Assembly (NCBI GenBank): GCA_048882325.1
Contig: JBHLRS010000004.1
Span: forward strand, 1-19,661
Direction of reading: 5' to 3'
DNA length: 19,661 bases
From: Candidatus Thorarchaeota archaeon
GTDB taxonomy: Archaea; Asgardarchaeota; Thorarchaeia; Thorarchaeales; Thorarchaeaceae
Part shown: one piece after another, positions 16,107-19,661 of the stretch
Numbering within the stretch: position 1 is the first letter of the stretch
How the letters are laid out: the number at the start of each line of letters is the position of its first letter
Notes under the pieces: generated by a model
Told to the model about the DNA's origin: nothing
Seen by the model: only the letters and a program-made list of their open reading frames with translations
Database searches by the model: none
Program-made: the position numbers and the translations under genes

Positions 16107-16886
16107 ATGTATAGGGTGTGTCTCACTAACGATGATGGTCCGAGAAGCGAGGGACTGTTAAAGCTTGCAGAATCGCTGATGAAGGTTGTAGAGGTAATAG
16201 TCGTTGTGCCAGATGGACAACGTAGTGCGACTGGTAAGACCTTGACCCTAAAGAGACCAATACGAATCACGGAGAAACATGATACTAATGGTTATCAGTT
16301 TGTCTCTCATGATGGTGCGCCAGCTGATTCAGTGATTCTTGCACAAGCATTCTATGAAAACATTGACCTATTGATTTCTGGAATAAATTCAGGAGCAAAT
16401 GTTGGATATCAGAGCATGTTGACAAGTGGAACAGTCGGAGCAGCCTTCGAGGCGGCCATTAGAGGACTACCATCAATTGCTGTATCTCGGCAAGCTTCAC
16501 CAGAGGAGTGGTTTGAAGCTATAGGTGCTGATGGTGATTGCGAGAAGATGTGTGAGATAATAACTGAGCTCGTTATGAGAGTCCTCAAGAAGGGTATGCC
16601 AAAAGGAATTGACATGTTAAATCTGAACTTTCCGAATAAGCTTTCTGAAGATTCTAAATTAGTAATCACAAAACCGACCAAAGTTCGAATGCATAATGAA
16701 GTTGAGGAAAGAAAAGATCCTATGGGTAGACCGTACTATTGGTATCTAGGAATTGAACGAGACCCTCTGCCAAAATCGGATGCTTATGAGGTATTCATTC
16801 ATGGAAACATCTCCTTGTCACCAGTCATTTTGGATTGGATTACCGAAAAAGAAGTGGAAACATTGGAAGAGTTCATGAAGGATTGA
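16107..16886 (+). CDS. surE: 5'/3'-nucleotidase SurE
   Basis: LTNDDG, DGAPADSV, ISGINSGAN, SGTVGAA, LNLNFP and DPMGRPYYW. AAGGAG SD before ATG 16107. Confidence 0.95.
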   Translation: MYRVCLTNDDGPRSEGLLKLAESLMKVVEVIVVVPDGQRSATGKTLTLKRPIRITEKHDTNGYQFVSHDGAPADSVILAQAFYENIDLLISGINSGANVGYQSMLTSGTVGAAFEAAIRGLPSIAVSRQASPEEWFEAIGADGDCEKMCEIITELVMRVLKKGMPKGIDMLNLNFPNKLSEDSKLVITKPTKVRMHNEVEERKDPMGRPYYWYLGIERDPLPKSDAYEVFIHGNISLSPVILDWITEKEVETLEEFMKD

Positions 16887-17883
16887 CCTTTTTCAGGGCA
16901 TCCCAGAGGGCATCGGTTTCTGGTCGTTCGAGATGGAGTCTATCTGAATCAGTTATGATTATCCTATGATTTGAGTCCTCTACAATTTTGCCAATCACAC
17001 AAGCTGATACACCTCTAGACTGGACTGTATTAACGACTTCAGTAGCATACTCAGCCTTACAGCAGATTATCATGCACCCACTACTGATAAGCTCCATTGG
17101 GTTTACATTTAACAAATCGCAGATCATCCTTGTGGATTCATCAATTGGAATTGCATCTTTGTATATCTCAAATCCTACTTTACTGGCGTCGCAGATTTCA
17201 TGAAGTCCGCCAGAGAGTCCGCCTTCAGTAGGGTCATGCATAGCTGTAACATGCCCTGTTTCAAAGGCAGCAACTCCTTCTGCAACGACACTGAGATCTT
17301 TCCTGAGAGCCTTCGCATTTGTTACAACTACCTCTCCAAGTGTGGATGATAAATAATCAAAGCCTTCAGTGGCGAGTATCGCGGCTCCTTCAAGTGCTAT
17401 TGACTTTGTCACTACAATTGAGTTTCCGGGTTTAGCTCCTGAGGATGTCACATACTCTCCTTCCCCTGTTATGCCTATCATAAACCCAACTACAATTGGT
17501 CTGTCAATCCCTTCTGTTATTTCAGAATGACCTCCAGCAACAGAGATTCCAAGTATACTAGCAGCCTCATCAATTTGCGCTGTGACAAATCCCAGTTGTT
17601 CAGGCGTCGAATCCTTGGGTAGGATAATAGAAGCTAGAAACCATCGTGGATAGACGCCGAAAGTTGCAATGTCATTAGCATTCACGTGAACTGAAAGCCA
17701 ACCTACATCAGACACTGAACCGGTTATGGGATCAGTCGCAGCAATAATAACTTTGTCACCTATTCGAATAACTGAAGCATCCTCACCTAAACTAGGTCCA
17801 AGAAGTACATCGGGATCTTTGACCCCTAACTTTTCGAACACAATCTTCTGAAGGATTTCCGGAGGTACTTTTCCAGGACGCAT
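16873..17883 (-). CDS. AIR synthase-related protein (HypE/PurM-like family)
   Basis: GKVPPEIL, GPSLGEDAS, TDPITG, VHVNANDIAT, AGGHSE, AMHDPTEGG and LISSG. The likely start is ATG 17883. Confidence 0.9.
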   Translation of the reverse strand: MRPGKVPPEILQKIVFEKLGVKDPDVLLGPSLGEDASVIRIGDKVIIAATDPITGSVSDVGWLSVHVNANDIATFGVYPRWFLASIILPKDSTPEQLGFVTAQIDEAASILGISVAGGHSEITEGIDRPIVVGFMIGITGEGEYVTSSGAKPGNSIVVTKSIALEGAAILATEGFDYLSSTLGEVVVTNAKALRKDLSVVAEGVAAFETGHVTAMHDPTEGGLSGGLHEICDASKVGFEIYKDAIPIDESTRMICDLLNVNPMELISSGCMIICCKAEYATEVVNTVQSRGVSACVIGKIVEDSNHRIIITDSDRLHLERPETDALWDALKKVNPS

Positions 17884-17903
17884 TGCAGCCACCACTAAAG
17901 GGA

Positions 17904-18020
17904 TAGGTGCGCACAAAATCCTGTGCCTGACGCATGAAAAGCAGATTCATTGCAACCCAGTACTGGGCTCTCCTCGCTCACTATGACGCCAGGCATTAGG
18001 TGGATCCTGTGCGCATCCTA
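17904..18020 (-). ncRNA. Structured intergenic RNA; candidate K-turn-containing box H/ACA guide RNA
   Basis: Nested stems with G:U pairs that favour the minus strand, a K-turn-like motif, an internal pocket and an ACA triplet 14 nt below the pocket top. Confidence 0.55.
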
Positions 18021-18072: not shown

Positions 18073-19503
18073 TCATTGGGGAAGATATGCTTCCACCTCT
18101 CTGAGATCTTGTTCCCTGAAACGACTTCGTGAAAGACTTCCACTCAGAAGAGTTCCAAGAATAGAGGGTTCTTTGAGAAGATCACGTGAGAGGTAAGCTT
18201 TGCCGCCTGAAGCACGAGCAACAAGATAAGCTCCGAACGTCTTTCGGAATTCTTCCACCATTAGAATAGTTTCTATCGGATCATTTAGTCCTTCTTTTTT
18301 CATTCTCAGCATAGCTGCAAGCTCCAGAGCTTCATGATAAGGGCGTTTGAGAAATCGAGGCCAATTTGATTGCTCGGGATCAACATTAACAGCAACCAAC
18401 CGCACCTTTGCCTTTCTTATGAGTCTTGCAGCTCGAACTAAATCCTGAACTGGAGTGTACTGTTCATGGCCAGGGCCAGCAGTCTGGGCAAGGGGAATGT
18501 TTGGTGAGAAATCGGATACAACTATGACAAGAGGTTCTACGTCATCATTTCTCATTCGCTCCCTTCTTATGGTTTCTAAAGATTTCTTGAGGGCCTCAGC
18601 AATTGGAGTTAGTCCTGAGATACGTAACCGACCCAATGCCCGATAGATCTTGTTCCAGTTAGTTGTAGGCACTTGAATCTCAACTGCTCCGCTGTCCTTG
18701 AATGCAATGATACCGGTACGGTCTTTGGACCCCCGTGTTTCACTTTCTATTCGTTCAAGAAACTCTCGCACCTGTTCCATGCTTCCCTTCATAGACAGAC
18801 TGACATCGATGACTAAGATTATGGTTAATGGAGTCCTACCTGTGAAGACACTCTCTCGTAAGTCATCTCTTGTGATTCTGATGGCATCATCTTCAGTGCG
18901 TCCTGTACGTGCTACAGCTGCAAGCACAGTGGTTGGAATGTGAATGCTACTTGGCTCGCCAGTGGGGATTCGTGATCTCACTGGTCGACCGTGTTTCATT
19001 GTATCAGATGATTTCAGAGACCCTGTAGCCCTAGAACTCACTCTCTTCTTTACCCACCCTCCGGATGACACTCGTGCTCTAATCATGGCACGTTTCTGAA
19101 GTTTCTCTAGATCGAAAAGCTCCTCCCCAGTATCGATATCAGGCATCTTGACAAAGAAGCCATCATCAAGTCCAAACGGGGCCTCTCGTATCTCAGACTT
19201 GGAGCCTGACACCATATCAGGTGTTTCGGGAGTGTAGGGTCTGGTGGCCAGTCCCCACTCATCACCAGGCTCGGGTCTTCCGCCACCAGGTTCAACTGTA
19301 TCAATTCCTGCAGCTGGTCCTGTGTTCCTTCGAGTCATGACTTCAAGCCATTTTCTAATAAGAAAATACATCACTGGTGCAATGACTACGGTATCAATGA
19401 ATAAGACAGGTATTGGTGGAAACTGCAGAATTTGGAGGCCGAACAACCAGTTAATCGGACTGATATATATCCAGGCAAACCAAATGAATGCTACAAACAT
19501 CAT
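18073..19503 (-). CDS. ChlD-type (Mg/Co chelatase medium subunit) vWA domain preceded by a two-TM hairpin; probably the 3' part of a -1 frameshifted gene
   Basis: HGRPVRSRIP...TTVLAAV...DDLRE, MIDAS IDVSLSM, DRTGIIAF, GLTPIAEAL and VVSDFSPNIPL match the ChlD C-terminal half. The frame stays open upstream of the ATG through the A9 run. Confidence 0.85.
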   Translation of the reverse strand: MMFVAFIWFAWIYISPINWLFGLQILQFPPIPVLFIDTVVIAPVMYFLIRKWLEVMTRRNTGPAAGIDTVEPGGGRPEPGDEWGLATRPYTPETPDMVSGSKSEIREAPFGLDDGFFVKMPDIDTGEELFDLEKLQKRAMIRARVSSGGWVKKRVSSRATGSLKSSDTMKHGRPVRSRIPTGEPSSIHIPTTVLAAVARTGRTEDDAIRITRDDLRESVFTGRTPLTIILVIDVSLSMKGSMEQVREFLERIESETRGSKDRTGIIAFKDSGAVEIQVPTTNWNKIYRALGRLRISGLTPIAEALKKSLETIRRERMRNDDVEPLVIVVSDFSPNIPLAQTAGPGHEQYTPVQDLVRAARLIRKAKVRLVAVNVDPEQSNWPRFLKRPYHEALELAAMLRMKKEGLNDPIETILMVEEFRKTFGAYLVARASGGKAYLSRDLLKEPSILGTLLSGSLSRSRFREQDLREVEAYLPQ

Positions 19504-19547
19504 GATTGCGCAGATGGTCCCCTTGATAGGATCACCGCGGGGATTCC

Positions 19548-19661
19548 TTATTCCTCCCGTAGTTTTTTTTTGCCTTCCTGTCTGCCACCTGTGGCAAATC
19601 TCGATCCCCGACCGAATCGTCCTCCACTGACTCTAGGACCCTTTTTATCATCCTCTTCATC
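19548..19661 (-). CDS. 3' end of an upstream ORF (partial), probably the linker end of an AAA+ ChlI/ChlD-like protein
   Basis: The frame from the window edge reads DEEDDKKGPRVSGGRFGRGSRFATGGRQEGKKKLREE* (TAA at 19550-19548). Identity is inferred from context only. Confidence 0.55.
   Translation of the reverse strand, partial: DEEDDKKGPRVSGGRFGRGSRFATGGRQEGKKKLREE
19563..19571 (-). other. A9 slippery sequence; candidate -1 frameshift or transcriptional slippage site
   Basis: GGC AAA AAA AAA CTA in the upstream frame. The -1 frame reads AAA AAA ACT ACG GGA... without a stop into the vWA ORF. Confidence 0.6.

What the first reader, a model, noticed from the sequence alone, without database searches (positions are those of the whole stretch)
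18073..19661. Candidate programmed -1 frameshift switching a soluble chelatase-type subunit to a membrane-anchored vWA form
Seen: on the minus strand an ORF enters from the window edge with an acidic then Gly/Arg-rich linker, crosses an A9 run (19571-19563) and stops four sense codons later (TAA 19550). A -1 shift on the run continues as KKTTGGIRNPRGDPIKGTICAI-MMFVAF... into the vWA ORF. The first hydrophobic helix begins before the annotated ATG (TICAI), that ATG lacks a good SD, and the -1 frame is closed by TAG at 19635-19633, so it has no earlier start. Flanking elements are an SD-like AGGAAGG just 5' of the run, a hairpin at 19581-19598, and a possible 3' pseudoknot (GGGA/UCCC, with loop AUAAGGA pairing to downstream UCCUAU). 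Established: some prokaryotic chlD genes use poly-A -1 frameshifting in the AAA-vWA linker to make both the small (ChlI-like) and medium (ChlD-like) subunits. Inference: here a two-TM hairpin follows the shift site, which canonical ChlD lacks, so recoding would set the ratio of soluble to membrane-tethered subunits. No chelatase large subunit is visible in this window, so the complex could be a non-tetrapyrrole AAA/vWA remodelling machine.
Basis: partly seen in the sequence, partly recalled or inferred. Interest (0 to 1): 0.9.

Follow-up and report, generated by a model that had tools for sequence, protein, structure and literature searches.

The report
Poly-A slip site in chlD-like gene
A conserved run of nine A's lets one chelatase-type gene of a Thorarchaeota (Asgard) archaeon make a short soluble ATPase and, after a one-base backward slip, a long membrane-anchored ATPase-plus-vWA protein; the slip device is already published for this gene family, so only the lineage and the membrane anchor are new.

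Summary
The A9 run (19571-19563, minus strand), the zero-frame TAA (19550-19548), the TAG closing the -1 frame (19635-19633) and the start-less continuation into the vWA ORF are all present.

The window ends at a 100-N scaffold gap. Beyond the gap lies a ChlI-type AAA+ module (TIGR02442 positions 2-221, E 5e-99).

I examined 63 orthologous loci from 15 genera of the same family.
- 61 keep a run of at least nine A's.
- 56 need the same -1 shift, 5 are naturally in frame (about 900 aa), and 2 need the opposite shift.

The 42 nt before the annotated ATG evolve as coding sequence in the vWA frame (pN/pS 0.20, against 1.6 and 2.5 in the other frames). 44 of 63 loci have no start codon in that stretch. 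Independent contigs from four sequencing runs all read A9.

No CobN/ChlH was found in 86 family genomes.

This is a frameshifted chlD-type (fs-chlD) gene, published in 2013-2022, here in Asgard archaea and with a two-helix membrane hairpin after the shift site. This scan has already reported the same device in other Thorarchaeota genomes. Whether the ribosome or the RNA polymerase slips remains untested.

The parts
19548..19661 (-). 3' end of the zero-frame (ChlI-like) reading frame. It holds the acidic and Gly/Arg-rich tail, three Lys codons, L-R-E-E and the stop TAA at 19550-19548. The AAA+ body lies beyond the window, past the 100-N gap (contig C4, about 19762-20470).
   Evidence: Loose ends of public contigs continue this frame.
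19563..19571 (-). A9 slip site (AAA AAA AAA in the zero frame)
   Evidence: a run of at least 9 in 61 of 63 orthologous loci. No indel in contigs of 4 runs.
19504..19562 (-). Stretch read in the vWA (-1) frame that has no start codon of its own. The first 12 nt overlap the zero-frame tail.
   Evidence: In the last 42 nt, pN/pS is 0.20 in this frame against 1.56 and 2.50 in the others. There are no stops in 61 of 61 loci and no start codon in 44 of 63 loci. Strain SNPs at 19528 and 19540 are synonymous in this frame (read by me).
19633..19635 (-). TAG that closes the vWA frame upstream of the run
18073..19503 (-). vWA ORF as an ORF finder calls it (476 aa from ATG 19503, stop at 18075-18073). 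I read it as the C-terminal part of the shifted product.
   Evidence: TIGR02442 positions 399-616, E 1.8e-29
19462..19527 (-). First hydrophobic helix of the membrane hairpin. It begins before the annotated ATG.
   Evidence: AlphaFold helix 13-34, pLDDT about 80. Hydropathy of the in-frame orthologue.
19333..19413 (-). Second hydrophobic helix of the hairpin, followed by a basic stretch (R-K ... R-R)
   Evidence: AlphaFold helix 51-77
18373..18822 (-). vWA (integrin-I-like) domain, with the D-x-S-x-S metal-site motif at 18793-18807
   Evidence: Pfam VWA_2 and VWA. D, S, S are invariant in 29 sequences. The fold matches solved vWA domains.

Best explanation
This is one chlD-type gene read in two ways.

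Standard decoding gives a ChlI-like AAA+ ATPase of about 400 aa. It ends four codons after the A9 run.

A fraction of the product is shifted by -1 at the run. It continues through a two-helix membrane hairpin and a disordered spacer into a vWA domain with an intact metal-site motif, giving about 890 aa. Both products share the same ATPase module, so they can co-assemble into a mixed ring, as ChlI and ChlD do. The long form ties that ring to the membrane with both domains in the cytoplasm. Slip efficiency sets the ratio of the two forms.

I judge the slip more likely to be RNA polymerase adding one A (about 55%) than tandem tRNA-Lys slippage on the ribosome (about 35%). Both may contribute.

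Shown here: the conserved site, coding in the new frame without a start codon, and the domain identities.
Inferred: two products, co-assembly, membrane topology and mechanism.

The client is unknown. It is probably not a tetrapyrrole, since no CobN/ChlH was found.
For: - Domains. The upstream ORF matches TIGR02442 positions 2-221 (E 5e-99) and BchI/ChlI (E 3e-83). The downstream ORF matches positions 399-616 of the same fused model. This is the only ChlI-type gene in the genome.
- Conservation. Of 63 loci from 15 genera (55-86% aa identity), 56 have the AAA+ frame +1 relative to the vWA frame, with the stop usually 7 codons from the run start. The run is A9 in 45 loci, A10 in 12 and A11 in 4.
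- Coding upstream of the ATG. pN/pS is 0.20 in the vWA frame, with no stops, and 44 of 63 loci lack any start codon there. Third-position entropy equals that of the ORF body.
- Natural fusions. Five orthologues are in frame at 898-913 aa. More distant relatives are uninterrupted and also carry hydrophobic helices.
- Not an assembly error. A9 appears without indel in contigs of 4 runs from 2 studies, including a strain variant.
- Precedent. The Mg-chelatase fs-gene cluster showed 63%, 40% and 10% shifted product with 11, 9 and 7 A's in E. coli, and includes archaea (PMC3711429). See also PMC9227772.
- For polymerase slippage. Runs stay at 9 or more although a ribosomal heptamer needs 7. The run sits in all three codon phases. 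There is no conserved flanking structure. Two loci need the opposite shift.
Against: - No RNA or protein data exist for this organism, so two products are inferred, not seen.
- An ATG is present at the first or second Met position in every locus. Separate initiation of a 476-aa vWA protein may therefore also occur. Antonov et al. saw internal initiation in some constructs.
- 10 of 63 loci have a GTG overlapping the zero-frame stop, which could support re-initiation in those loci.
- In this assembly the AAA+ part and the linker are separated by a gap, so their frame relation here rests on orthologues and on contig loose ends.
- The five in-frame loci and the two opposite-direction loci may be homopolymer errors in those assemblies.
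- One locus has only A7 directly before TAA (L054), which fits ribosomal slippage better.
Confidence: 0.85

Rival explanations
1. Two ordinary neighbouring genes. The ATPase gene ends at TAA 19550. The vWA gene starts independently at ATG 19503, or by re-initiation at the stop. The A-run is just a Lys-Lys-Lys stretch.
For: - Public annotations call the vWA part a separate protein of 492-513 aa.
- An ATG is kept at the first or second Met position in all loci.
- 10 of 63 loci have a GTG overlapping the stop.
- Internal initiation was seen in some published constructs.
Against: - The 42 nt before the ATG are under coding constraint in the vWA frame (pN/pS 0.20), and 44 of 63 loci have no ATG, GTG or TTG there.
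- The first hydrophobic helix begins before the ATG.
- Three Lys codons stay AAA in 61 of 63 loci, while a nearby Lys codon toggles AAG in 35 and AAA in 20.
- In-frame fusions exist in nature.
Confidence: 0.08
2. Homopolymer error. The true sequence is A10 and the gene is one uninterrupted ORF.
For: - The run lies about 90 nt from a contig end and scaffold gap.
- Five related assemblies do have the in-frame length.
Against: - Contigs of four runs from two studies, assembled independently and including a strain with three SNPs, all read A9 with no indel.
- 56 of 63 species assemblies show the same frame break.
- The zero-frame stop sits at a conserved distance from the run.
Confidence: 0.03
3. 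The site is real, but the shift is made only by the ribosome. This would be classical -1 tandem slippage of tRNA-Lys on A_AAA_AAA.
For: - The published name for the family device is programmed ribosomal frameshifting, on A_AAA_AAR.
- An archaeal -1 shift on an A-rich heptamer is reported for a fucosidase gene (abstract of PMC8037382).
- One locus has only A7 followed directly by a stop (L054).
Against: - There is no conserved downstream structure or upstream SD-like motif.
- Selection keeps 9-11 A's where 7 would do, in any codon phase.
- Published reporter tests measured protein only and cannot tell the two mechanisms apart.
- Efficiency rising with run length is typical of polymerase slippage (my own knowledge; run-length selection is analysed in PMC1088944, abstract seen).
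Confidence: 0.35

Closest known systems
Frameshifted chlD genes (fs-chlD; the 'magnesium chelatase' fs-gene cluster). Sources: Antonov et al. 2013 (PMC3711429), Atkins et al. 2016 (PMC5009743), Kuznetsov et al. 2022 (PMC9227772).
   Same: - ChlI-type AAA+ module, poly-A slip site at the AAA+/vWA boundary, -1 direction, and a zero-frame stop just after the site.
- The short product is ChlI-sized and the long product is ChlD-like.
- Fused in-frame relatives exist.
- Archaeal members are known (Methanocaldococcus, Methanococcus).
   Different: - The lineage is Thorarchaeota (Asgard). I found no paper on this in the library.
- A two-helix membrane hairpin and a disordered spacer of about 120 aa follow the shift site.
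- A helical extension of about 100 aa follows the vWA domain.
- There is no conserved downstream RNA structure, although the papers say one is usual.
'Stage 1' organisms of Kuznetsov et al. 2022 (Spirochaeta thermophila, Brevefilum fermentans): fs-chlD only, with no large subunit and no chlorophyll or B12 pathway
   Same: A single recoded chlD-type gene with no CobN/ChlH in the genome; function stated as unknown.
   Different: Those are bacteria, and a membrane anchor is not mentioned. Here the absence of CobN was tested in 86 genomes of one archaeal family.
MoxR-type AAA+ / vWA chaperone pairs such as NorQ/NorD
   Same: An AAA+ ring works with a vWA partner that docks on a client. The vWA model also matches the NorD vWA domain in the fold search (ranks 30 and 37). 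NorQD is reported to insert a metal cofactor into a membrane enzyme (abstract of PMC9976466).
   Different: The ATPase here is ChlI-type, not MoxR-type. The two partners come from one gene and share the ATPase module. No client is known.
dnaX tau/gamma: two products from one gene by slippage on an A-rich site
   Same: One gene gives a full-length form and a form lacking the C-terminal domains, in a set ratio, through an A-rich slip site. The A_AAA_AAG site in E. coli dnaX is stated in the abstract of PMC1851650; the rest is my own knowledge.
   Different: In dnaX the shift truncates the protein. Here the shift extends it. The proteins are unrelated.

Membership tests
fs-chlD (frameshifted chlD-type genes) | ChlI-type AAA+ module encoded upstream of the shift site | tested here: met
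   TIGR02442 positions 2-221, E 4.8e-99, and TIGR02030, E 2.8e-83. Walker A (G-P-K-G-T-G-K-T) and Walker B (V-D-E) motifs are readable.
fs-chlD (frameshifted chlD-type genes) | vWA / integrin-I domain with a metal-site motif encoded downstream in another frame | tested here: met
   Pfam VWA_2 and VWA. TIGR02442 positions 399-616. D-x-S-x-S invariant. vWA fold.
fs-chlD (frameshifted chlD-type genes) | A-rich slip site (A_AAA_AAR or a longer poly-A) at the domain boundary, conserved among orthologues | tested here: met
   A9 here. A run of 9 or more in 61 of 63 loci from 15 genera.
fs-chlD (frameshifted chlD-type genes) | Zero-frame stop soon after the site, giving a ChlI-sized short product | tested here: met
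   The stop is 7 codons from the run start in 45 of 56 loci. The upstream open frame has a median of 410 codons.
fs-chlD (frameshifted chlD-type genes) | Stimulatory RNA structure downstream (described as usual, not obligatory) | tested here: not met
   RNAalifold finds no consensus pairs in 34 sequences. Single-sequence folds give z of about 0.
fs-chlD (frameshifted chlD-type genes) | Both products actually made | not testable with these tools
   No RNA run holds the stretch and no proteomics are available.
Class I ATP-dependent Mg/Co chelatase (ChlIDH / CobNST) | Large catalytic subunit ChlH/CobN encoded in the genome | tested here: not met
   PF02514 was not found in G000 (93% complete) or in any of 86 family genomes. 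Positive controls rang in 5 of 14 known genomes.
Class I ATP-dependent Mg/Co chelatase (ChlIDH / CobNST) | Score above the curated cut-off of the equivalog models (TIGR02442, TIGR02030, TIGR02031) | tested here: inconclusive
   All scores are below cut-off (332 against 779, 280 against 467). However, the query pieces are partial because of the gap and the frame break.

The most novel reading that the evidence does not exclude
In Thorarchaeota the poly-A tract acts at transcription as a rheostat. It sets how many subunits of a ChlI-type AAA+ ring carry a membrane hairpin and a vWA hand. This membrane-tethered machine has nothing to do with tetrapyrroles. It instead loads a metal or remodels a membrane protein complex, in the manner of NorQD. 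It would belong to a wider, undescribed archaeal clade of membrane-anchored ChlD-like proteins found in other Asgard lineages and in Bathyarchaeota.
Probability: 0.3. Interest if true: 0.6.

Novelty: new variant of a known kind. Interest (0 to 1): 0.35.

Why it matters
- It corrects annotation. In about 60 Thorarchaeota species the 'AAA family ATPase' and the neighbouring 'VWA domain-containing protein' are one recoded gene, and gene callers clip the first membrane helix.
- It adds Asgard archaea to the few archaeal cases of conserved frame-shifting sites.
- It points to an uncharacterised membrane-anchored branch of ChlI/ChlD-type machines that lack any CobN/ChlH partner. The function of such orphan ChlI/ChlD pairs is an open question in the literature (PMC9227772).

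The mechanism itself is not new, and this scan has already reported the same device in other Thorarchaeota genomes.

Tried and rejected
- RNA evidence: no RNA holder is listed for this stretch, so expression and A9-versus-A10 in RNA could not be examined.
- Only assembled contigs could be laid, not raw reads. Minor length variants in the DNA population would therefore not show.
- Conserved RNA stimulators: RNAalifold on 34 diverse loci gave zero pairs. Folds of the window sequence were no better than shuffles.
- Pseudogene reading: rejected, because both halves and the junction are under purifying selection in 56 species.
- Link to the neighbouring AIR-synthase-like gene: it lies directly downstream in the two genera checked, but not next to the three distant fused relatives. 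Synteny among close kin proves little, so I draw no functional link.
- Two scripts failed, one on a time limit and one with no answer. Both were re-run successfully.
- I did not run a complex prediction.
- Literature searches for recoding in Asgard archaea and for membrane-anchored ChlD found nothing relevant. The 2020 paper by Antonov on chlD frameshifting is not in the library and is known to me only through PMC9227772.

Full report
**What is in the sequence**

On the minus strand an ORF enters at the window edge. It reads an acidic stretch and then a Gly/Arg-rich stretch, crosses A9 at 19571-19563 as three Lys codons, and stops at TAA 19550-19548 after four more codons. The -1 frame is closed by TAG 19635-19633. 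It contains no ATG, GTG or TTG before ATG 19503, and it reads through the run into the 476-aa vWA ORF.

**What lies beyond the window**

The window is the first 19661 bases of a 150-kb contig. It ends exactly at a 100-N scaffold gap.

On the far side of the gap is the N-terminal 236 aa of a ChlI-type AAA+ ATPase.
- TIGR02442 'putative cobaltochelatase', positions 2-221 of 641, E 4.8e-99.
- BchI/ChlI, E 2.8e-83.

The vWA ORF matches positions 399-616 of the same fused model (E 1.8e-29) and the Pfam VWA families.

Orthologues have a zero-frame product of about 397 aa, so the gap hides about 125 codons, the AAA+ lid. Public contigs that overlap the window end run on for up to 200 nt. The linker frame is therefore the ATPase frame.

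This is the only ChlI-type gene in the genome.

**Is A9 an error?**

No. Contigs assembled independently from four public runs of two studies cover the run with no inserted or deleted letter.

Three of those runs carry a strain variant with three SNPs.
- Those at 19528 and 19540 are synonymous in the vWA frame (CCT to CCC, CCC to CCA).
- The one at 19551 is synonymous in the zero frame (GAA to GAG). In the vWA frame it changes Ile to Val, an exchange also seen among orthologues.

The codon readings are mine.

**Comparative test**

The vWA protein was found in 72 of 87 genomes of the order, in 15 of 17 genera, all in one family. Database names and earlier notes place these genomes in Thorarchaeota, Asgard archaea.

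I read 63 loci.
- In 56 the ATPase frame is +1 relative to the vWA frame, so the same -1 shift is needed.
- Five are in frame, with open frames of 898-913 aa where the full ORF was fetched. Each is one base longer in or next to the run than its nearest kin.
- Two need the opposite shift.
- Run lengths are A9 in 45 loci, A10 in 12, A11 in 4, A8 in 1 and A7 in 1.
- The zero-frame stop is 7 codons from the run start in 45 of 56 loci.

The three Lys codons stay AAA although this genome uses AAA for only 45% of Lys codons. A control Lys codon nearby is AAG in 35 loci and AAA in 20.

**Is the stretch before the ATG translated?**

Yes.
- Between the run and the ATG, variation by codon position in the vWA frame (0.44, 0.23, 1.15 bits) equals that inside the ORF (0.49, 0.31, 1.08).
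- Over 61 loci, the 42 nt before the ATG have pN/pS 0.20 in the vWA frame, against 1.56 and 2.50 in the other two frames.
- No locus has a stop in the vWA frame there, and 44 of 63 loci have no possible start codon after the run.
- The first hydrophobic helix starts four codons before the ATG.

A separate start at the ATG cannot explain these facts, although it may occur in addition. An ATG is always present at the first or second Met position.

**Flanking signals**

- RNAalifold finds no consensus pair in 34 diverse loci.
- Folds of the window sequence equal shuffled controls.
- Upstream of the run only a Gly codon is conserved.

**Mechanism**

Either the ribosome slips back one base on A_AAA_AAA, or RNA polymerase adds one A. 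Four observations make me lean to the polymerase, at about 55 to 35.
- Runs are kept at 9-11 A's where seven would be enough for the ribosome.
- The run sits in all three codon phases.
- There are no conserved stimulators.
- Two loci need the opposite direction.

Published tests measured protein in E. coli and cannot separate the two mechanisms (63%, 40% and 10% shifted product with 11, 9 and 7 A's). One locus, with A7 directly before TAA, argues for the ribosome.

**The long product**

A model built with 29 aligned sequences (mean pLDDT 67) shows four parts.
- Two long helices at residues 13-34 and 51-77, pLDDT about 80.
- A disordered spacer from about residue 78 to 195.
- A confident vWA fold.
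- A helical C-terminal extension.

The vWA fold matches solved vWA domains, including NorD. D-x-S-x-S is invariant. Basic residues flank both ends of the hairpin, so I infer that both the ATPase and the vWA domain face the cytoplasm.

**How unusual is the anchor?**

Of the 137 closest cluster representatives of 590 aa or more, 19 have a strongly hydrophobic segment between the two domains and the rest do not. Named members of these clusters come from Thorarchaeota, Promethearchaeota and Bathyarchaeota, and are uninterrupted ORFs. Three other Asgard families also have uninterrupted anchored forms without an A-run.

The anchor is therefore older and wider than the slip site. In this sample the combination of anchor and slip site is seen only in this family. 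I found no paper on either point.

**Function**

No CobN/ChlH was found in this genome (93% complete) or in any of 86 family genomes, while controls were positive. This matches the published 'stage 1' situation, in which an fs-chlD gene stands alone and its role is unknown. My inference is a membrane-tethered AAA+/vWA machine acting on a non-tetrapyrrole client.

**Comparison and verdict**

The locus meets all structural features of fs-chlD genes except a downstream RNA structure. It fails the chelatase holoenzyme test because no large subunit was found. It is a new lineage and an anchored variant of a published recoding device.

This scan had already reached the same reading in other Thorarchaeota genomes. 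I re-derived it here independently, before seeing those notes.

Noticed in passing
just beyond window 19661 (contig C4 19662-19761): A 100-N scaffold gap splits the gene and hides about 125 codons of the AAA+ lid. Public contigs from four runs also break or fork here, which suggests strain variation rather than a repeat.
   Followed up: partly
window 16873-17916 (-): A PurM-fold, AIR-synthase-related gene, with HypE, ThiL and SelD matches all below cut-off, lies directly downstream on the same strand. It holds the same position in the 28 related loci checked from two genera. It is not beside the three distant fused relatives.
   Followed up: partly
L017, L033, L046, L070, L074; L014, L066: Five orthologues are in frame, each one base longer at the run than its kin. 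Two need the opposite shift: a missing G before the run in L014, and A8 in L066. Whether these are real alleles or homopolymer errors in those assemblies was not resolved.
   Followed up: no
L054 (G066:C37): One orthologue has only A7, followed directly by TAA, with 12 nt deleted relative to the others. The site is minimal: P-K-K-stop in the zero frame.
   Followed up: no
P0014, P0019, P0031 and 16 further cluster representatives; L022, L023, L024: Uninterrupted ChlD-like proteins of 629-1059 aa with hydrophobic helices between the AAA+ and vWA domains occur in other Asgard lineages and in Bathyarchaeota. They are annotated only as 'AAA family ATPase' or 'VWA domain-containing protein'.
   Followed up: partly
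genome contigs C10 69626-69634, C11 35202-35210, C15 22255-22263, C18 29117-29125: Four other runs of nine A/T lie inside long open frames of this genome. I did not check whether any marks another recoding site or simply a gene start.
   Followed up: no
window 19528, 19540, 19551: A co-occurring strain in three public runs differs at three positions around the junction. All three changes are silent or conservative in the frame that I infer to be translated there.
   Followed up: yes
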